A stretch of DNA of 64,000 nt from the NCBI GenBank assembly GCA_028227395.1, contig JAOIZZ010000003.1, positions 63,077 to 127,076 on the forward strand, read 5' to 3'. The notes beneath the pieces are model-generated. The model did not search any database, was not told where the DNA came from, and saw only the letters and a list, made by a program, of their open reading frames with translations. Numbering within the stretch: position 1 is the stretch's first letter; each line of letters begins with the position of its first letter. This document shows, piece by piece, positions 53,880 through 64,000 of the stretch. The stretch comes from Woeseiaceae bacterium. GTDB lineage: Bacteria > Pseudomonadota > Gammaproteobacteria > Steroidobacterales > Woeseiaceae. Made by a program: the position numbers and the translations under genes.

Positions 53880-56213
53880 TTAATTTAGAGAAGCTTGAGT
53901 ACTGTCGTTATCCCAATCTACAAAGATCGGCGAAGACCAAGCACGCTCTTCGTTAACTGCCAGGCAATCATCATTCATATCCCCACGCCGATCTCCGTAA
54001 CAGAGATTAACTTTTTTACAGTTACCCTCTGAATCGTACTCACACCTGAGATTTTCAGCATTCACAGCAAGGCTTGGTGATTCGATCGCTCTCACGTAAT
54101 AAACAGCGTCCCTTCCCAGTGACGGATACTCCTCATCAATAAAATTAACTTCACAGCCATCAGGATCGGCTTTGCAGTCGAAGGTTTTCCATGGATCTTG
54201 AATTAGACCAGATATATCCTCATTGGGTGTAATTTGAGGAAGTATTCGAATTACTTCAATACGCGTAATCAGTTTTCTAGTATCTGATGGATTATAGCAT
54301 TCCCCACGGCATAAGTTTTCCAAACGCTCTGGTGTCAGTGCATTATAGGTATAATCTGGACAACCAGGTTTTTGTTCAAAGGCACCAACTGCTCTCACTT
54401 CAAACTCAGGCGCAGAAGACATAGCAACTTCATCACCCATATTGACGGAGGCATTTATTCCATTATTTTTTGTATTAAACCATAGTAATATCCGATCACC
54501 ACTAGTTCCATAAACCGCTTTTTTTTGCATGGAATCCCAAATAGAGTTTCGATCTCTACCATTTGAATGGACAGCCATCAATCCACCAGTCGTGAAAAAT
54601 GAAGCTTGTCTTTCTCGCTCAGTAATCATTAAGGGTACTATGTCCAATCTTCTTACTTTTGAGGTAGTTTTGATCAAATTTAAGTCTTCTCGTCCAATCA
54701 TCAAATCGGATCCTACATCGATATTATCTGATGAGGCGATTGGCTCGCCATCATTAAAACGAAAAGCGCGTTCAGCAGTCTTAGTAGCTGGTCCAAGAAC
54801 TGATTCTGTCATTCCTCTCCTTGAAAATTCCTTATATCCAGTTCCTGGCCTTGCTGAATGATTATCACTTGAGGCCATAAAGCCAAACCTAAATCGACGA
54901 GGATTTTCAGGGTCATCAAAATTTGTCTGTGCCATGATGTATTGTGCAGCTCCACCAGGACGATAATTAAATGCAGGTATATAACAATCTTTACACTGCC
55001 CAGAATCCAACCAATCTTCTGGACCTTCACCTCTAACAGTCAAATGACCACCGGTACCAGCATTGACATAATCTTGTCTTGCAGTAGCCGCTCGCTTCTG
55101 ACACTCATAAGGCGATTCACCAATGGCTAAACATCGATCTTCAATTATTTGTCCAGCTCGATGACATGATGGAAGGTAATCATCAGATGGAGCTGGACAA
55201 ATTGGTTGTTGCTTGTCATTCATTACAGTGGCCCTAAAATCTCGATATTCTTCTGAGTTTCCATGACCTGAAAATACCTCGAGAAGTGTTTGTCTATTAG
55301 GATCGAAATTATCACCAATAAGTTGTTTATTAAATTCAGAGGCAGGAGGAGTATAGAAACCCCAAGTAGTTCCATGCGGAATAACCATTGACTCAAAACC
55401 CCAATCATCTAATTTAGAGAAAAGTTCTGCTGGTGTTTCTGCACCCTCTCGACAATCACTTGGCAATTCCCATACGGATTTTCCAAGTTCACATTCTTCT
55501 GACTGCCTAAGCTCATGTAAATAGAGGTTGAAATCAAGCATTCTTTGATTCGGGTCTAATGCAAATAAAATAGGCCCATTTCTTAATGGCAGACCTCTCA
55601 AAGCAGAGTTAGCAATACCACCTGAATGAATTGGTCTTTTGGGAACTTTTTCAGTTTCAATATCTCTAAATATTACATTTTTATGGCCAAAATGAGTATC
55701 TGGGGTAGCTCCCACTTGTGTCCATTCCCAGCCTAAAAAAGCCACTGTATCTGGATTTGGGCCATTACCTCCTACTGCATTACACTGTTGAATAGAGCTA
55801 ACAGTTTCTGACCAGCGCCTGGGAGTAGATGCCTCGGCATGATCATTAATTGACCAAAAATCAAGTGCCGAACAAAATCTAGCAAAATCACATGCATCAG
55901 CAAGTGGATGAGAGCCTTCACCTTGAAGCATTGGGAGACTTCCTAAGAATGCATCAAATGAGAGAGTGGTATGAGCATGCAAGTCACCAAATAAAATCTG
56001 TTTAGTATTATCTGCATTAATGTTTGTGGCTGCTCGAGTTTGTATTTGAGTTCTTTCTTTAATTATCTCTTTTGGAATCATTTGGTTGGTAATTTTACCC
56101 GGCCCATCATGAATACCTAACCAGCCATAGGTGATTACAAAAAATAAACCTACAGCTATTAAAGTTAGAGTAAATAAAATAAATATAATTTTATTTATTG
56201 ATTTAGAGGGCAT
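53880..56213 (-). CDS. DUF3604-family protein (PHP-like predicted metal-dependent phosphoesterase), membrane anchored
   Basis: 777 aa. An N-terminal TM anchor is followed by the family signature FGDLHAHTTLSFDAF and further His/Asp clusters (INDHAE, IPHGTTWG, SSDNHSARPG). Confidence 0.7.
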   Translation of the reverse strand: MPSKSINKIIFILFTLTLIAVGLFFVITYGWLGIHDGPGKITNQMIPKEIIKERTQIQTRAATNINADNTKQILFGDLHAHTTLSFDAFLGSLPMLQGEGSHPLADACDFARFCSALDFWSINDHAEASTPRRWSETVSSIQQCNAVGGNGPNPDTVAFLGWEWTQVGATPDTHFGHKNVIFRDIETEKVPKRPIHSGGIANSALRGLPLRNGPILFALDPNQRMLDFNLYLHELRQSEECELGKSVWELPSDCREGAETPAELFSKLDDWGFESMVIPHGTTWGFYTPPASEFNKQLIGDNFDPNRQTLLEVFSGHGNSEEYRDFRATVMNDKQQPICPAPSDDYLPSCHRAGQIIEDRCLAIGESPYECQKRAATARQDYVNAGTGGHLTVRGEGPEDWLDSGQCKDCYIPAFNYRPGGAAQYIMAQTNFDDPENPRRFRFGFMASSDNHSARPGTGYKEFSRRGMTESVLGPATKTAERAFRFNDGEPIASSDNIDVGSDLMIGREDLNLIKTTSKVRRLDIVPLMITERERQASFFTTGGLMAVHSNGRDRNSIWDSMQKKAVYGTSGDRILLWFNTKNNGINASVNMGDEVAMSSAPEFEVRAVGAFEQKPGCPDYTYNALTPERLENLCRGECYNPSDTRKLITRIEVIRILPQITPNEDISGLIQDPWKTFDCKADPDGCEVNFIDEEYPSLGRDAVYYVRAIESPSLAVNAENLRCEYDSEGNCKKVNLCYGDRRGDMNDDCLAVNEERAWSSPIFVDWDNDSTQASLN

Positions 56214-59360: not shown

Positions 59361-60944
59361 ATGAGTTTTATTAAGAATATTAAATTATTAGTCGTAATTT
59401 TGGCGGTTAGTTTTTTGGTGGGTTGTTCCCAGCAAATAAATACTTCAAATCAAAATTTTGGAAATATTAGTTTTATAAATTCGGGCTCTCCTGAAGCGCA
59501 ATTAGCATTTTTGACGGGTGTTAAGGCGCTGCATAGCTTTCAATTTGATGGAGCTCGTATTGCTTTCGAAGAAGCACAAACCATAGACCCATCTTTCGCA
59601 ATGGCTTATTGGGGCCAGGCGATGAGTGATAATCATCCACTCTGGGCCCAACAAGATAAAATGGCTGCCGAAAAAGCTTTAATTCGTCTTGCACCAACAT
59701 TTGAAGAGCGTTTAGCAAAATCAGGTAGTGAGAAAGAAAAAGCCTATATGACCGCTATCGAGGCCTTATATTTCTCCTCTGATAATAAGCTTGAAAGAGA
59801 TTTCGCTTATTCATCAGCACTGTCTCGTATGCATGAAAGATGGCCTGATGATCATGAAATTTCTATATTTTATGCACTCTCATTACTGGGGACTATTCGT
59901 CCTGGTGATGATGGTTTTCGTAGGCAAGCGCTAGCTGCCTCTATCGCCATGGATGTCTTCAAGAAGAACGAAAATCATCCTGGCGCAGCACATTTTACAA
60001 TTCATTCACTAGATGATCCTGAGCATGCAATTCTTGCACTCCCCGCAGCAACTGTGTACGCAAATATTGCTCCATCATCAGCTCATGCATTGCATATGCC
60101 TTCACATATCTTCTTACAGTTAGGCATGTGGGATCGTGTTGTGAATTCTAATATTGAAGCTTTTGCAGCTGCAGTGAGTAATAATAAAAAGCTTGGCTTA
60201 AGAGAGGGTGGGGAGGATTTTCATACGCTATCTTGGTTGGCTTATGCCAACCTCATGCTTGGTCATTTTGATCGAGCTCAAGAAAACTTGGCTATTGCAC
60301 TCGCTACTGTTGAGAGAAATCCAGATGATAATCGTGTTCTTTCGCGTTATTTAAATATGCGTGCGAGGTATATAATTGAAACTGGTGATTGTGAGGAATC
60401 GGAGCTTAAAAGTGCTGATTCTAATGAAGGCCAACATACAGCATGGGTTACAGCATTAGGTATGTGTGCAGCTAAAAATCTTGATATGGAAACAGCTACT
60501 GAGGCACTAACTCGTTTGTCAATGAAGCGAGAGAAAACCCGAGAGTCTGGTGAGAGTTATAAAGCATTTGAGATTGAAATTCATGAAAAAGAATTAGGCG
60601 CTATAATTAAAATGATGCAAGGCGAATTTGATCAAGCCGTTGTTTTGGCTAGAGAGGCTTCTTTAATTGAACTAGAAAATATGTCAGCGCCATCAGGTCC
60701 GCCTATACCAATGAAGCCTGCTGCAGAGATGTATGGGGAAATATTAGCTGCTGCTGGCCGATATGATGAGGCGGTTAATGCATTTAAGGCTGCTTTAAAT
60801 TGGGTTCCAAATAGAACACCTTCTATTCTTGGTCTATCTATTGCGGCAGAAAAAAATGGTGATATGGAATTGGCAAGAGAAATGGAGGCAAAACTGCAAT
60901 CTACACCAGGGATAAACTCAGAGAAATTTACTGCCTCACTTTAA
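59361..60944 (+). CDS. TPR-like helical-repeat lipoprotein, unknown function
   Basis: 527 aa. Lipobox LVGCSQ, His-rich segments (HPGAAHFTIHSLDDPEHA, SAHALHMPSHIF) and C-terminal TPR-like repeats. Confidence 0.55.
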   Translation: MSFIKNIKLLVVILAVSFLVGCSQQINTSNQNFGNISFINSGSPEAQLAFLTGVKALHSFQFDGARIAFEEAQTIDPSFAMAYWGQAMSDNHPLWAQQDKMAAEKALIRLAPTFEERLAKSGSEKEKAYMTAIEALYFSSDNKLERDFAYSSALSRMHERWPDDHEISIFYALSLLGTIRPGDDGFRRQALAASIAMDVFKKNENHPGAAHFTIHSLDDPEHAILALPAATVYANIAPSSAHALHMPSHIFLQLGMWDRVVNSNIEAFAAAVSNNKKLGLREGGEDFHTLSWLAYANLMLGHFDRAQENLAIALATVERNPDDNRVLSRYLNMRARYIIETGDCEESELKSADSNEGQHTAWVTALGMCAAKNLDMETATEALTRLSMKREKTRESGESYKAFEIEIHEKELGAIIKMMQGEFDQAVVLAREASLIELENMSAPSGPPIPMKPAAEMYGEILAAAGRYDEAVNAFKAALNWVPNRTPSILGLSIAAEKNGDMELAREMEAKLQSTPGINSEKFTASL

Positions 60945-61047
60945 AGAAAAATGACTGTTAGAAATAAAAAAATATTTATAGGAAATTAATATAAAAGATT
61001 CACAAAAAAATAAAAAAATAAAAAAAGGGGTTACCCGCCGAGCATTT

Positions 61048-62910
61048 TTGGGTACTTCAGCCAGTGCTGCGGCTGTTATTGGAAGTGGTACAAATGTCAA
61101 TGCACAGGTCAGTGTTAAAGAAGAAATAAGAGGTAAGATTCCTGAACCTTCCCCATCACAATTGGATCGTGATGTCGGAGCTATGAAGCCTCCCATAGTA
61201 ATAAAGAGAGCGGCTCAGAGGCCTGGCTCTGATTTGATGGTGCAGGTACTAAAGGATTTGAAGATAGAGTTTATTGCAGCCAACCCTGCATCAAGTTTTG
61301 AAGGCTTGCAAGAATCAATTATCAATTATGGTCCAGTACCAAATACCATGCCTGAACTTATTACTGCGCTTCATGAAGAATCAGCTGTTGATATGGCACA
61401 TGGTTATGCTAAAGCTGAAGGTGCTCCAATGGCGGTGATGTTGCATGGAACAGTTGGTTTACAGCATGCTTCCATGGCTATTTATCAGGCGTATCATGAT
61501 AAGACTCCAATTATAATTATCGTAGGTAGGGATGATAAATTTTTTCGTCAAGAGCAAACTGCTAATGATATTGCAGGTCTTACTAGGGCATTTACCAAAT
61601 GGGACGTACAGCCAACATCTCTAAGTGGAACACTGGATGCAATTCAGCGTGCTCATAAGGAAGCCATTACTCCTCCAATGGGTCCAGTAGTGATTGTAAT
61701 TGATACAGAATTTCAAAAAGAAGAGGCAGGCGAACTAAAATTACCAATTTATACTCCACCTATTTTTAATACTATAAATAAAAAACAAGCAAAAAAAATA
61801 GCTCAAGACCTCCTACTAGCAAAAAATCCTAGAATTCAAATAGGAAAACTTAGAACGCCAGAAGGTATTTTAAATTCGATTAAGTTAGTTGAATTATCTG
61901 GATGCTCAGTAAGAACTGCAGCCACCAATGTATCAATGAGTTTCCCCGAAAGACATCCTCAGACTGGCAAGGGAAACGATACAAATTATGACTATATATT
62001 GGGTCTGGAATCGGATGGAGTTGATGTTTCAATTCAAGGGCCTACTTTATTATCAAACGCTGAAAATAGGGACCTTACAGAAATTGGTTTTGGGTTTATT
62101 AGGGATCCAGTTATTCCTCCAAGGCTTGATCTTACTGGAAAAAATGATATTACAGCAGACGCTGAAGCCAGTATTCCCATTATTATCGAGCAATTCAAAA
62201 GACTACAGACACAAGAAGCGCTTGATAATATCTCGGTGAGGGTCTCAAGACATGAATCTGCAAATTCAGAAAATTATGAAAAAGAATTAAAGAAAACACT
62301 CGAGAAAAAAAGAAAAGGATGGAATTCCAGCCCAGTCAGCCTTGCAAGATTGTATTCAGAATTATGGCCGCTCATAAGAGATCTCGATTGGTGTTTATCC
62401 TCTCCAACTGTGTTTTCTAGTCGTCATCATGTTGGTCTCTGGGATCACAATAAACCTTATAGTTATTTGGGCATGCATGGGGCTGGAGGTATAGGATATT
62501 GCATTGGTGCATCTGCAGGTGCAGGGCTTGCTGCAAAAGATCGAAATCGAATAGTAGTGAATATTCAATGTGATGGAGATTTGAATTATACGCCTGGTTC
62601 TTTATGGACTGCGGCACATCATAAATTGCCATTATTAACAATCATGCATAATAATCGAGGTTATCATCAGGAGGTCATGTATCTTCATTATATGGCTGGA
62701 GTAAGGGGAAGGGGGAGCGATCGTATGCATATTGGTACCACCCTGAGAGAACCATTTATAGATTATGCAAAACTTGCTGAAGCCTATGGTGTTAAAAGTG
62801 AGGGGCCAATTGAGAATCCAGAAGAGCTTGCCGCTGCTTATAAAAGAGGTATAAAAACAGTTTTATCCGGTAAACCATATCTCATAGATGTTATCACTGA
62901 GCCAAGATGA
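61048..62910 (+). CDS. thiamine-diphosphate-dependent enzyme (ALS/PoxB-like three-domain fold) with a twin-arginine signal whose start lies upstream of the track start
   Basis: Pyr domain HEESAVDMAHGYA. ThDP motif CDGDLNY-X-MHNNRGY (GDG-X24-27-NN). The frame is open from 60982 and encodes ...KKGVTRRAFLGTSASAAAVIGSGTNVNA-Q. TTG 61048 is the only canonical start, so the true start is probably upstream (ATA 61018 or ATT 60985) or hidden by a homopolymer error. Confidence 0.8.
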   Translation: MGTSASAAAVIGSGTNVNAQVSVKEEIRGKIPEPSPSQLDRDVGAMKPPIVIKRAAQRPGSDLMVQVLKDLKIEFIAANPASSFEGLQESIINYGPVPNTMPELITALHEESAVDMAHGYAKAEGAPMAVMLHGTVGLQHASMAIYQAYHDKTPIIIIVGRDDKFFRQEQTANDIAGLTRAFTKWDVQPTSLSGTLDAIQRAHKEAITPPMGPVVIVIDTEFQKEEAGELKLPIYTPPIFNTINKKQAKKIAQDLLLAKNPRIQIGKLRTPEGILNSIKLVELSGCSVRTAATNVSMSFPERHPQTGKGNDTNYDYILGLESDGVDVSIQGPTLLSNAENRDLTEIGFGFIRDPVIPPRLDLTGKNDITADAEASIPIIIEQFKRLQTQEALDNISVRVSRHESANSENYEKELKKTLEKKRKGWNSSPVSLARLYSELWPLIRDLDWCLSSPTVFSSRHHVGLWDHNKPYSYLGMHGAGGIGYCIGASAGAGLAAKDRNRIVVNIQCDGDLNYTPGSLWTAAHHKLPLLTIMHNNRGYHQEVMYLHYMAGVRGRGSDRMHIGTTLREPFIDYAKLAEAYGVKSEGPIENPEELAAAYKRGIKTVLSGKPYLIDVITEPR

Positions 62911-63314
62911 AGAAATTCTCTCTATATGTTTTTATATTTATAGTATTTTTGTACGTACCCATAATTAATTCAGCTATAAATACTGAAAATGGTGCATCAC
63001 TTTACTTGGATCATGGTTGTTATAGTTGTCATGGCTATAATGGAAGCGGCAGGCATCCAATTGCTAATAATATCAGTGGTATTATGTCCAGTGAGGCATT
63101 ATTTATAACTTTCTTAAGATTAAGAGCTGATCTCAACCCCTTAAAACCATCAAATAGTATGCCAAATTACAGTGAAGCAGTAATTAATGATGAGCAAGCT
63201 CAAGATTTATATGCCTATATAAATACCCTAACAGATAATCCGCCGCAGATTGAAAATATACCTATCCTTAAAAATATACTTGATAACGCTATTAGGAAAA
63301 CCGAAAATGAATAA
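62907..63314 (+). CDS. mono-haem c-type cytochrome (class I-like), secreted
   Basis: 135 aa. Sec signal MKKFSLYVFIFIVFLYVPIINSA, haem motif CYSCH and a candidate Met ligand in SMPNY. ATGA overlaps the ThDP enzyme stop. Confidence 0.8.
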   Translation: MKKFSLYVFIFIVFLYVPIINSAINTENGASLYLDHGCYSCHGYNGSGRHPIANNISGIMSSEALFITFLRLRADLNPLKPSNSMPNYSEAVINDEQAQDLYAYINTLTDNPPQIENIPILKNILDNAIRKTENE

Positions 63315-64000
63315 AATCACTCAAAAATTTAAATTATTTGCCTTCATTCTATGTTTGATTTTTTCTCATCAAGAACTGATGGCTCATCACTCAGCGATTG
63401 CCTTCGACAAGACAAAATCGGTTACCGTTTCGGGTAAAATCATGCGCTCAGTCTGGCGCAATCCTCATATGGCCATCAATATAGAGGTTCCTGGTGATAC
63501 GGATAATTCGATTCTTTGGAAGATTGAGGGACCTGGAACCACAATTCTCGCTGGAAAAGGTTTTAATAAAAAATTGCTTATGGATGCCACTAAATCCAGC
63601 GAATTAATCACCGTAGTTATGCATCCACTTCGTTCTGGCAAACCAGGTGGTTTACTTCAAAGAATTACGCTTGCCAGTGGTGATTCTTATCAAGTTGGAG
63701 AAGAATATCAAGATCCAGCTGCAGGCGAACAAGAGAGAGTAATCCCTTCTCTGGTGGAATGGACACCTCCACCGAAAGGTGAAACCTGGCAGCAGAGAGA
63801 AGCGAAAACCCGTCCAAGTAAATTACCTATTATTGCCAGTGAGGCAAGACAAACTGGACCAGGCGCACTAGATCCTGAAAATCTAAATAAAAAAAGATCC
63901 CCAGCACCATTTGATTTGACAGGTATTTGGTCTTTTAGAGGCGAAGATAGGGGCGATCAAAATTACACTTCTATGTATGGCTCTTATGAATTCAAACCTC
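63307..64000 (+). CDS. secreted DUF6152-like protein with a C-terminal extension (partial, runs off the right edge)
   Basis: ATG at 63307 overlaps the cytochrome stop by 8 nt. The frame is open to the window end. MNKITQKFKLFAFILCLIFSHQELMAHHSAIAFDKTKSVTVSGKIMRSVWRNPHMAINIEV...VVMHPLRSGKPGG matches the AHHS..FD....G.V....W.NPH pattern I associate with DUF6152. Confidence 0.6.
   Translation, partial: MNKITQKFKLFAFILCLIFSHQELMAHHSAIAFDKTKSVTVSGKIMRSVWRNPHMAINIEVPGDTDNSILWKIEGPGTTILAGKGFNKKLLMDATKSSELITVVMHPLRSGKPGGLLQRITLASGDSYQVGEEYQDPAAGEQERVIPSLVEWTPPPKGETWQQREAKTRPSKLPIIASEARQTGPGALDPENLNKKRSPAPFDLTGIWSFRGEDRGDQNYTSMYGSYEFKP

What the first reader, a model, noticed from the sequence alone, without database searches (positions are those of the whole stretch)
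59361..64000. Periplasmic ThDP enzyme, cytochrome c and DUF6152-like trio: possible undescribed periplasmic 2-oxoacid/aldehyde:cytochrome c oxidoreductase
The 620-aa protein has the full ThDP-enzyme architecture: a Pyr domain with HEESAVDMAHGYA, a middle domain, and a PP domain with GDG-X-NN (CDGDLNY...MHNNRGY). It is preceded in frame by a Tat signal, and Tat export suits a cofactor-loaded enzyme. Its stop overlaps (ATGA) the start of a Sec-exported mono-haem cytochrome c (CYSCH). The stop of that gene overlaps by 8 nt a third secreted protein with the AHHS..FD...W.NPH pattern (DUF6152-like) and a long extra C-terminal region. A His-rich TPR lipoprotein gene lies 100 nt upstream on the same strand. 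The ThDP enzymes of this fold that I know (acetolactate synthase, PoxB, Xsc, oxalyl-CoA and benzoylformate decarboxylases) act on the cytoplasmic side. A Tat-exported member stoichiometrically coupled to a c-type cytochrome suggests periplasmic oxidative decarboxylation or C-C cleavage, with electrons delivered straight to the respiratory chain. I am not aware of a described system of this kind.
Basis: partly seen in the sequence, partly recalled or inferred. Interest (0 to 1): 0.75.

Follow-up and report, generated by a model that had tools for sequence, protein, structure and literature searches.

The report
Exported thiamine enzyme paired with cytochrome c
A thiamine-diphosphate enzyme that carries an export signal for the periplasm is almost always encoded next to its own small cytochrome c, in ocean and soil bacteria from several phyla; this points to an undescribed way of feeding electrons from aldehydes or 2-oxoacids into respiration, but no experiment supports it yet.

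Summary
Window 60991-62910 encodes a benzoylformate-decarboxylase-like ThDP enzyme with an in-frame twin-arginine (Tat) signal. Its stop overlaps (ATGA) a Sec-type mono-haem cytochrome c gene, which overlaps a DUF6152 gene by 8 nt.

Comparative data make the core solid:
- Tat-bearing relatives form one clade (Gammaproteobacteria, Acidobacteriota, sphingomonads). 88 of 90 homologues in 80 genomes keep the RR motif.
- A cytochrome c gene lies directly downstream of 73/85 genes in genomes and 46/46 in metagenome contigs.
- Two signal-less relatives have no cytochrome c neighbour.

The "trio" is lineage-specific. DUF6152 genes, here fused to a calycin-like barrel, are fixed in the operon only in the marine gammaproteobacterial clade. 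They lie within 10 kb in about a third of the other genomes. The TPR lipoprotein is peripheral.

In this low-GC lineage no ATG/GTG/TTG precedes the RR motif. Conserved ATA/ATT codons sit where relatives have ATG.

Most likely function (inferred): a periplasmic ThDP-dependent aldehyde or 2-oxoacid:cytochrome c oxidoreductase. The substrate is unknown; gene contexts weakly hint at aromatics. I could not determine whether FAD is present. I found no paper describing such a system. Two cultured carriers, Rhizorhabdus wittichii RW1 and a Novosphingobium strain, make it testable.

The parts
60991..62910 (+). Tat-exported ThDP enzyme (about 639 aa if ATA 60991 is the start; gene callers give 61048-62910, 620 aa). 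It is benzoylformate-decarboxylase-like and has Pyr and PP domains.
   Evidence: Pfam PF02776 and PF02775. The best PDB matches by sequence and by fold are benzoylformate decarboxylases. The catalytic Glu in HEE aligns with Glu47 of benzoylformate decarboxylase, and the GDG...NN motif is invariant in the clade.
60991..61104 (+). Twin-arginine signal peptide: Lys-rich n-region, TRRAFLG at 61033-61053, and a VNA|Q cleavage site. The start codon is probably ATA 60991 (alternatives: ATT 60985, ATA 61018).
   Evidence: In-frame translation. The RR motif is conserved, with synonymous Arg codon changes, in relatives of 71-97% identity. ATA/ATT at -15/-14 from RR aligns with ATG at -14/-15 in relatives that have a canonical start. 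Pfam TAT_signal matches 7/13 clade members.
62907..63314 (+). Mono-haem class I cytochrome c (135 aa) with a Sec-type signal. CYSCH lies at 63018-63032 and the Met ligand motif SMPNY at 63156-63170. Its start overlaps the ThDP stop (ATGA).
   Evidence: Pfam PF00034 5.4e-11. The single CXXCH and the MP motif are conserved in 82 neighbouring cytochromes. A cytochrome c gene lies directly downstream of 73/85 (genomes) and 46/46 (metagenome contigs) ThDP genes.
63307..64000 (+). 5' part (231 of 415 codons) of a secreted DUF6152 protein fused to a C-terminal calycin-like barrel domain. The mature N-terminus is His-His-Ser (63385-63393), and WRNPH lies at 63454-63468.
   Evidence: Pfam PF19649 3.2e-19. 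The full length comes from the 99.3%-identical contig L001. The AF2 model has pLDDT 81: an OB-like N-domain plus a barrel resembling fatty-acid- and retinol-binding proteins. HHS is present in 113/120 homologues.
59361..60944 (+). TPR lipoprotein (527 aa). It is a peripheral neighbour, not a core part of the module.
   Evidence: Lipobox LVGC and TPR Pfam hits. It lies upstream only in relatives of 80% identity or more, sits on the opposite strand downstream in relatives of about 74% identity, and is absent elsewhere.

Best explanation
The core is a two-gene module.

Proposed mechanism:
1. A benzoylformate-decarboxylase-like ThDP enzyme folds and binds ThDP/Mg2+ in the cytoplasm. The Tat pathway then exports it to the periplasm.
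2. There it works with a dedicated, Sec-exported mono-haem cytochrome c encoded immediately downstream.
3. ThDP forms the carbanion/enamine (Breslow) intermediate. This happens either by decarboxylating a 2-oxoacid or by adding directly to an aldehyde.
4. The intermediate is oxidised in two one-electron steps by the cytochrome c, which passes the electrons to the respiratory chain.
5. The resulting acyl-ThDP is hydrolysed to a carboxylate.

The substrate is unknown. Gene contexts and the nearest characterised relatives weakly favour aromatic 2-oxoacids or aldehydes.

In the marine gammaproteobacterial lineage of this window, the module has recruited two to three pairs of secreted DUF6152 (OB-like, His-His N-terminus) plus calycin-like barrel proteins. 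These probably act as accessory ligand- or metal-binding components.

Shown: the export signal, the ThDP motifs, the haem motif and the gene linkage. Inferred: the complex, the direction of electron flow, the chemistry and the substrate.
For: 1. Export. The RR motif is present in 88/90 homologues from 80 species genomes. The Tat-bearing proteins form one clade on a neighbour-joining (NJ) tree; the four apparent exceptions are N-terminally truncated gene calls. Pfam TAT_signal matches 7/13 members. In the window lineage the signal is kept in frame with synonymous Arg codon changes.
2. Catalytic competence. The catalytic Glu, the GDG...NN motif and the LWTAA motif are invariant.
3. Cytochrome c partner. 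It lies directly downstream in 73/85 and 46/46 cases, often with overlapping stop and start codons. It sits upstream, or after a ThDP tandem, in 4 more cases, and a fifth locus (L083) has it downstream with the haem motif beyond the 400-nt cut-off. The single CXXCH and the Met ligand are conserved. The pair recurs in Gammaproteobacteria, Acidobacteriota and Alphaproteobacteria, including R. wittichii RW1 and a Novosphingobium strain. No other neighbour is conserved across phyla.
4. Specificity. Two signal-less relatives have no cytochrome c neighbour.
5. Chemistry. One-electron oxidation of ThDP enamines by ferricyanide, by FAD in pyruvate oxidase (POX/PoxB) and by Fe-S clusters in pyruvate:ferredoxin oxidoreductase (PFOR) is established enzymology (my own knowledge).
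6. DUF6152 linkage. The gene order is fixed in all relatives of 66% identity or more. Adjacency survives rearrangement into a divergent orientation in relatives of 53-61% identity. In the reverse test, 2 of 3 DUF6152 orthologues sit next to a ThDP-cytochrome c pair.
Against: - No experiment exists.
- The closest characterised relatives, benzoylformate decarboxylases at about 20-25% identity, are non-oxidative and cytoplasmic.
- No residue set specific to the Tat clade suggests an electron relay. The clade differs from its signal-less sister clade at only about six positions outside the signal.
- There is no invariant Cys, so no Fe-S cluster. Whether FAD is bound could not be assessed, because the AF2 model is poor (pLDDT 65).
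- The distance from the usually buried ThDP C2 to a docked haem is unknown.
- Seven of 85 genes lack a nearby cytochrome c.
- In this genome the signal peptide depends on a non-canonical start codon.
Confidence: 0.55

Rival explanations
1. The exported ThDP enzyme is non-oxidative: a periplasmic decarboxylase, C-C lyase or carboligase, like its benzoylformate decarboxylase and benzaldehyde-lyase relatives. The adjacent cytochrome c serves another enzyme, or has a structural or sensing role.
For: The best sequence and fold matches are non-oxidative benzoylformate and 4-hydroxybenzoylformate decarboxylases and engineered formolases. No clade-specific redox-relay residues were found. PQQ dehydrogenases that could use a soluble cytochrome c lie within 10 kb in 12 loci.
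Against: The cytochrome c is the only neighbour conserved across three phyla. It is usually translationally coupled to the ThDP gene, and no other redox enzyme is consistently nearby. The PQQ enzymes that do occur carry their own cytochrome c domain. Signal-less relatives lack the cytochrome c neighbour.
Confidence: 0.2
2. The oxidative function is the same, but the enzyme works as a flavo-ThDP enzyme, like pyruvate oxidase (PoxB). FAD bound in the middle domain takes two electrons from the enamine and passes them singly to the cytochrome c. The module would then be a ThDP-flavocytochrome c.
For: All well-characterised oxidative members of this fold (POX, PoxB) use FAD (my own knowledge). The middle domain PF00205 is detectable in 9/13 clade members. 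Tat export suits a protein carrying several cofactors.
Against: The nearest relatives by sequence and fold are FAD-free benzoylformate decarboxylases. Pyruvate oxidase models are not among the top NCBIfam hits. The middle domain of the window subclade is too degenerate for Pfam to detect.
Confidence: 0.15
3. In this particular organism the enzyme is cytoplasmic. Translation starts at TTG 61048, inside a decayed signal peptide, and the upstream Tat-like sequence is an untranslated relic.
For: No ATG, GTG or TTG lies upstream of the RR motif in the window. Gene callers pick TTG 61048 or later starts for this lineage.
Against: The upstream frame is open and encodes a conserved Lys-rich n-region plus S/T-RR-x-F-L/I-G in at least eight sublineages of 71-97% identity. 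The Arg codons change synonymously (CGC CGA, AGA CGT, AGA CGA, CGG CGA, AGG CGT). An ATA, ATT or ATC codon sits at the position where sister lineages have ATG. The cytochrome c and DUF6152 partners, which have Sec-type signals, are retained.
Confidence: 0.05

Closest known systems
Benzoylformate decarboxylase and 4-hydroxybenzoylformate decarboxylase (ThDP enzymes of the decarboxylase/pyruvate-oxidase (DC/POX) superfamily)
   Same: They are the closest solved relatives by sequence (E about 1e-26) and by fold. Shared features are the catalytic Glu, a His at the position of benzoylformate decarboxylase His70, the GDG...NN motif and the LWTAA motif. They act on aromatic 2-oxoacids, which fits the aromatic-catabolism neighbours of some loci.
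   Different: They are cytoplasmic and non-oxidative and have no cytochrome partner. Identity is only about 20-25%. The NCBIfam benzoylformate decarboxylase score is 150.6 bits against a cutoff of 493. The middle domain here is degenerate and carries an insertion of about 40 residues plus long helices.
Pyruvate oxidase / pyruvate:quinone oxidoreductase PoxB (formerly 'pyruvate dehydrogenase (cytochrome)')
   Same: These are ThDP enzymes of the same superfamily that oxidise the hydroxyethyl-ThDP intermediate and deliver the electrons to the respiratory chain.
   Different: PoxB is FAD-dependent, acts on the cytoplasmic face of the membrane and reduces quinone. It has no signal peptide and no haem partner. 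FAD could not be shown here.
Periplasmic two-subunit dehydrogenase:cytochrome c enzymes (for example SorAB sulfite dehydrogenase, p-cresol methylhydroxylase flavocytochrome c, the molybdenum aldehyde oxidoreductase PaoABC)
   Same: The genetic and cellular logic is the same: a Tat-exported catalytic subunit loaded with its cofactor, plus a Sec-exported mono-haem cytochrome c encoded next to it, with periplasmic substrate oxidation feeding the respiratory chain (my own knowledge of these systems).
   Different: Their catalytic cofactors are molybdopterin or flavin. None uses ThDP.
Pyruvate:ferredoxin oxidoreductase family
   Same: This family shows that ThDP enamines can be oxidised in one-electron steps through a ThDP radical without flavin.
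   Different: It has an unrelated domain organisation, uses [4Fe-4S] clusters and CoA, and is cytoplasmic and oxygen-sensitive. The present clade has no invariant Cys.

Membership tests
ThDP-dependent enzymes, DC/POX superfamily (Pyr - middle - PP domains) | N-terminal Pyr domain with the catalytic Glu that activates ThDP | tested here: met
   PF02776 at 2.8e-17. The first Glu of HEE aligns with Glu47 of benzoylformate decarboxylase and is invariant in 13 diverse clade members.
ThDP-dependent enzymes, DC/POX superfamily (Pyr - middle - PP domains) | C-terminal PP domain with the GDG-X(24-27)-NN Mg2+/diphosphate motif | tested here: met
   PF02775 at 8e-22. D-G-D and N-N are invariant. Coordinates are 62569-62664.
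ThDP-dependent enzymes, DC/POX superfamily (Pyr - middle - PP domains) | Central domain (Pfam PF00205) | tested here: inconclusive
   Not detected in the window protein even at E<=1. It is detected in 9/13 clade members (best 6.6e-14). The benzoylformate decarboxylase alignment runs into its first half.
Benzoylformate decarboxylase (EC 4.1.1.7) | Score above the curated family threshold | tested here: not met
   NF005485 scores 150.6 bits against a cutoff of 493. The best model, NF006203 (PRK08327, a ThDP-requiring protein of unknown function), scores 165 against 456.
Benzoylformate decarboxylase (EC 4.1.1.7) | Cytoplasmic, non-oxidative enzyme without a redox partner | tested here: not met
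   Conserved Tat signal and conserved cytochrome c neighbour.
FAD-dependent pyruvate oxidase / PoxB | FAD bound by the middle domain | not testable with these tools
   The AF2 model is too poor (pLDDT 65). No pyruvate oxidase model is among the top 25 NCBIfam hits.
Tat (twin-arginine) substrates | S/T-R-R-x-F-L-K motif, hydrophobic h-region and AxA-type cleavage site at the N-terminus | tested here: met
   TRRAFLG, followed by TSASAAAVIGSG, followed by VNA|Q. The motif occurs in 88/90 homologues. PF10518 matches 7/13 clade members. Actual export was not tested.
Tat (twin-arginine) substrates | A start codon upstream of the signal peptide | tested here: inconclusive
   There is no ATG, GTG or TTG. 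Conserved ATA/ATT/ATC sits at the position of ATG in relatives.
Class I c-type cytochromes | Single CXXCH haem-attachment motif, distal Met ligand and export signal | tested here: met
   PF00034 at 5.4e-11. CYSCH and SMPNY are conserved in 82 neighbouring cytochromes, 80 of them with one haem motif. The Sec-type signal was judged by inspection.
DUF6152 (PF19649) | Pfam model match above the gathering score | tested here: met
   69.3 bits against a cutoff of 27. Three paralogues occur in the locus. The family has no known function and appears in no paper in the searchable library.
Periplasmic dehydrogenase:cytochrome c heterodimers (works-like comparison) | Physical complex and substrate-dependent reduction of the cytochrome c subunit | not testable with these tools
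   Only gene linkage and overlapping stop and start codons are shown.

The most novel reading that the evidence does not exclude
A ThDP enzyme without flavin or Fe-S clusters works in the bacterial periplasm. It passes electrons from the thiazolium-bound (Breslow) intermediate directly to a c-type haem. This would create a previously unrecognised respiratory entry point for aldehydes or 2-oxoacids, possibly aromatic compounds derived from lignin or humic matter. It would be widespread in ocean Gammaproteobacteria and soil Acidobacteriota. In the marine lineage it would be served by a new family of secreted proteins that combine a His-His N-terminus, an OB-like domain and a calycin-like barrel, and that bind a metal and/or a hydrophobic substrate.
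Probability: 0.3. Interest if true: 0.85.

Novelty: new variant of a known kind. Interest (0 to 1): 0.72.

Why it matters
As far as I know, and as far as the searchable literature shows, ThDP enzymes of this fold act in the cytoplasm, or in organelles in eukaryotes. A monophyletic, Tat-exported clade with a dedicated cytochrome c would be new in three ways:
- It would add ThDP to the short list of cofactors used for periplasmic respiration, alongside molybdopterin, flavin, PQQ, haem and copper.
- It would define a new enzyme class: ThDP-dependent substrate:cytochrome c oxidoreductases.
- It could show how a ThDP enamine is oxidised by a haem protein, with or without flavin.

The clade is not rare. 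Close relatives recur in many marine metagenomes, including Tara Oceans samples, and in many soil Acidobacteriota, often as tandem paralogues. It may therefore matter for the turnover of aldehydes, oxoacids or aromatic compounds in oceans and soils.

Cultured carriers exist, so the idea can be tested directly. They are Rhizorhabdus wittichii RW1 (ABQ67889.1) and Novosphingobium sp. KACC 22771.

The apparent conserved use of AUA/AUU as a start codon is a separate curiosity. It also explains why gene callers systematically cut off the signal peptide in this lineage.

Tried and rejected
- Promoter and terminator scan of the locus: fewer sites than in shuffled sequence, so it says nothing about operon boundaries.
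- AF2 model of the ThDP enzyme from a 13-sequence alignment: mean pLDDT 65 with poor domain packing. I used it only for fold family and did not infer an FAD site or a docking surface from it.
- Residues specific to the Tat clade that might form an electron relay: only about six discriminating positions outside the signal, none aromatic, His or Cys.
- PDB sequence searches for DUF6152 plus the C-terminal domain, with a single sequence and with a 75-sequence profile: no hit at E<=10. Foldseek gave only weak matches: fatty-acid- and retinol-binding-protein-like barrels and OB folds, best E = 5.5e-4.
- TPR lipoprotein as part of the system: rejected, because it is conserved only in near relatives and changes strand and position.
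- DUF6152 as an obligatory third subunit: rejected, because it is absent within 10 kb in 54 of 80 genome loci and occurs without the ThDP enzyme in L088.
- Cytochrome c as the partner of a neighbouring PQQ dehydrogenase: rejected as a general explanation, because a PQQ enzyme is present in only 12 loci and carries its own cytochrome c domain.
- Natural ThDP-cytochrome c fusion proteins in the roughly 150 loci: none seen.
- Nine literature searches (DUF6152, periplasmic ThDP/TPP enzymes, Tat plus thiamine, RW1 locus tags): nothing relevant.


Full report
**1. What is in the window**

Four genes lie on the + strand at 59361-64000.
- A TPR lipoprotein at 59361-60944, with lipobox LVGC.
- A ThDP enzyme listed as 61048(TTG)-62910.
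- A 135-aa cytochrome c at 62907-63314.
- A DUF6152 gene that starts at 63307 and runs off the window end.

Pfam confirms TPP_enzyme_N and TPP_enzyme_C, Cytochrom_C and DUF6152. The ATGA overlap and the 8-nt overlap are real.

Upstream of the listed TTG the frame stays open to 60982. It encodes KKIKKGVTRRAFLGTSASAAAVIGSGTNVNA|QV, a canonical twin-arginine signal.

'His-rich' overstates the TPR protein. It is 2.8% His, with one local cluster.

A 99.3%-identical contig (L001) supplies what the window cuts off.
- The DUF6152 protein is 415 aa, with an extra C-terminal domain (CTD) of about 220 aa.
- It is followed by a second DUF6152+CTD fusion (340 aa).
- After inserted LigB and GST genes comes a split pair: a CTD-only protein (275 aa) and a DUF6152-only protein (128 aa).

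**2. The start-codon problem**

No ATG, GTG or TTG precedes the RR motif in the window. The same holds in at least eight related sublineages of 71-97% identity.

The upstream frame is nevertheless conserved at the protein level. It keeps a Lys-rich n-region and S/T-RR-x-F-L/I-G, and the Arg codons change synonymously. An ATA, ATT or ATC codon sits 15, 14 or 12 codons before RR. Sister lineages have their ATG at that position (for example MGKSKKSVKKNKLTRR).

I conclude that the signal is translated from a non-canonical AUA/AUU start. This explains why gene callers output truncated versions of 620, 591, 579 and 557 aa.

**3. A monophyletic exported clade**

Orthologues of 67-70% identity have normal Met starts followed by a Tat signal.

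A search of 1.8 billion cluster representatives found many relatives of 38-56% identity with RRxFL signals. Relatives of 33-37% identity lack any signal.

On an NJ tree of 90 full-length representatives the Tat-bearing proteins form one clade. The four apparent exceptions inside it are N-terminally truncated gene calls.

In 80 species genomes, 88 of 90 homologues carry the motif. These genomes are all MAGs: Woeseiaceae, Steroidobacteraceae and other Gammaproteobacteria, plus Bryobacterales, Vicinamibacterales and Terriglobia.

**4. The cytochrome c is the constant partner**

A mono-haem cytochrome c gene lies directly downstream on the same strand of 73 of 85 evaluable ThDP genes in genomes, and of 46 of 46 in metagenome contigs.

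Of the 12 apparent exceptions:
- One (L083) has the cytochrome c, with its haem motif further into the gene.
- Two (L056, L079) have it upstream.
- Two (L047, L068) are ThDP-ThDP-cytochrome c tandems.
- Seven truly lack it.

The single CXXCH, the MP Met-ligand motif and a YAYI motif are conserved.

No other neighbour is conserved across phyla. Two signal-less relatives have no cytochrome c nearby.

The pair also occurs in cultured sphingomonads.
- In Rhizorhabdus wittichii RW1 (ABQ67889.1) it sits beside genes for an alpha/beta hydrolase, a thiolase, a CoA ligase, a Rieske dioxygenase (alpha and beta subunits), an AraC regulator and a TonB receptor.
- On a Novosphingobium megaplasmid it is followed by a second cytochrome c and a TonB-dependent receptor.

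**5. DUF6152 is a lineage-specific accessory**

In every relative of 66% identity or more whose contig extends far enough, the order is fixed: ThDP, cytochrome c, DUF+CTD (about 410 aa), DUF+CTD (about 340 aa), then the CTD and DUF split pair.

In gammaproteobacterial relatives of 53-61% identity the DUF+CTD pair is divergently transcribed upstream, or absent. Adjacency that survives such rearrangement argues for a functional link.

In the 80 genome loci, DUF6152 or CTD genes lie within 10 kb in 26 loci. None occurs in the other 59 kb of the window.

In the reverse test, two of three DUF+CTD orthologues sit next to a ThDP-cytochrome c pair and one does not.

AF2 (pLDDT 81) predicts an OB-like N-domain and a barrel resembling fatty-acid- and retinol-binding proteins. 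The PDB matches are weak and there is no sequence match to the PDB.

The mature N-terminus is His-His-Ser in 113 of 120 homologues. With the invariant WRNPH motif this suggests a metal site, which is my inference only. The occurrence of fused and split versions links the two domains functionally.

**6. What kind of ThDP enzyme**

The best curated model, PRK08327 (a ThDP protein of unknown function), is far below its threshold. So is the benzoylformate decarboxylase model.

The best PDB relatives by sequence and by fold are benzoylformate and 4-hydroxybenzoylformate decarboxylases and engineered formolases. Residues matching Glu47 and His70 of benzoylformate decarboxylase, the GDG...NN motif and the LWTAA motif are present.

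There is no invariant Cys, so no Fe-S cluster.

The middle domain is detectable in 9 of 13 clade members but not in the window protein. FAD binding could not be assessed, because the AF2 model is poor.

The Tat clade differs from its cytoplasmic sister clade at very few positions outside the signal.

**7. Mechanism (inferred)**

Three observations underlie the model: an export route that carries folded, cofactor-loaded proteins; intact ThDP catalytic motifs; and a dedicated haem c partner.

The most economical reading is periplasmic oxidation of the ThDP-bound enamine, with electrons passing to cytochrome c and on to the respiratory chain. The enamine would form from a 2-oxoacid by decarboxylation, or from an aldehyde by direct addition. 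The acyl-ThDP would then be hydrolysed.

One-electron oxidation of ThDP enamines is established chemistry: ferricyanide assays, the PFOR radical, and FAD in POX/PoxB (my own knowledge). The layout of a Tat-exported catalytic subunit plus a Sec-exported cytochrome c matches SorAB-type periplasmic dehydrogenases.

The main rival is a non-oxidative periplasmic lyase or decarboxylase.

**8. Substrate hints (weak)**

Recurrent but non-universal neighbours are:
- a PQQ dehydrogenase with a cytochrome c domain (12 loci);
- tannase/feruloyl esterase (7 loci);
- two LigB-type dioxygenase families (6 and 5 loci);
- FAA hydrolase (6 loci);
- GSTs and MFS transporters;
- ring-hydroxylating dioxygenase and TonB receptors in the sphingomonads.

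Together with the benzoylformate decarboxylase kinship, these hints lean towards aromatic 2-oxoacids or aldehydes. They do not establish it.

**9. Literature**

Nine full-text searches found nothing relevant. The terms covered DUF6152, periplasmic ThDP/TPP enzymes, Tat plus thiamine, ThDP plus cytochrome c, and RW1 locus tags. The library lacks most subscription-journal papers, so an existing description cannot be excluded.

**10. Verdict**

The exported ThDP enzyme plus cytochrome c is a real, conserved and apparently undescribed module. The DUF6152 proteins are an accessory in the marine lineage, and the TPR protein is not part of the module. Function and substrate remain inferences.

Noticed in passing
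window 60982-61053; also L085, L086, L090-L111, L135, L139: The ThDP gene of this low-GC marine lineage has no ATG, GTG or TTG upstream of its conserved Tat motif. ATA, ATT or ATC sits 15, 14 or 12 codons before RR, at the position where sister lineages have ATG. This suggests a conserved AUA/AUU initiation codon. It also explains why gene callers systematically truncate the signal peptide.
   Followed up: partly
window 63307-64000; L001 12260-14552 and 16218-17444: DUF6152 occurs fused to an unannotated domain of about 220 aa in two genes. In a third pair the two parts are separate adjacent genes, which links the domains functionally. AF2 predicts an OB-like domain plus a calycin barrel resembling fatty-acid-binding proteins. 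The mature N-terminus His-His-Ser and the WRNPH motif are nearly invariant, which hints at a metal site.
   Followed up: partly
L046, L049, L050, L051, L055, L072 (Bryobacterales, Steroidobacteraceae); L047, L068: Some genomes carry two ThDP-cytochrome c modules in tandem or a few kb apart, or a ThDP-ThDP-cytochrome c arrangement. This suggests paralogous expansion with different substrate specificities.
   Followed up: no
L156 (Rhizorhabdus wittichii RW1, CP000699.1 1684600-1706558); L157 (Novosphingobium sp. KACC 22771 plasmid NZ_CP117882.1 545887-563806): Cultured sphingomonads carry the Tat-ThDP plus cytochrome c pair. In RW1 it lies next to a recombinase-flanked cluster with hydrolase, thiolase, CoA ligase, Rieske dioxygenase and TonB receptor genes. 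In the Novosphingobium strain it is followed by a second cytochrome c and a TonB-dependent receptor.
   Followed up: partly
L001 14558-16118 (just beyond the window end): In this genome a LigB-type extradiol dioxygenase gene and a GST gene, both on the opposite strand, are inserted between the second DUF6152 fusion gene and the split CTD/DUF6152 pair. In relatives of 74-77% identity the six genes are contiguous.
   Followed up: no
L001 17477-21863; L085 and L086 1-5850; L088 10267-15684: The module, or in L088 the DUF6152 pair alone, sits beside a cluster of photolyase, Mpo1-like, amine-oxidase-type flavoprotein, methyltransferase or cyclopropane-fatty-acid-synthase, SDR/epimerase and lipocalin genes. 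From memory, this resembles photo-oxidative-stress and lipid-modification clusters. A possible link to lipid-derived carbonyls was not examined.
   Followed up: no
window 53880-56213 (- strand): A large DUF3604 protein (777 aa) with an N-terminal membrane anchor or signal lies upstream, next to genes for a SurA-like rotamase and a HupE/UreJ_2 protein. This arrangement is conserved in near relatives. Its function is unknown.
   Followed up: no
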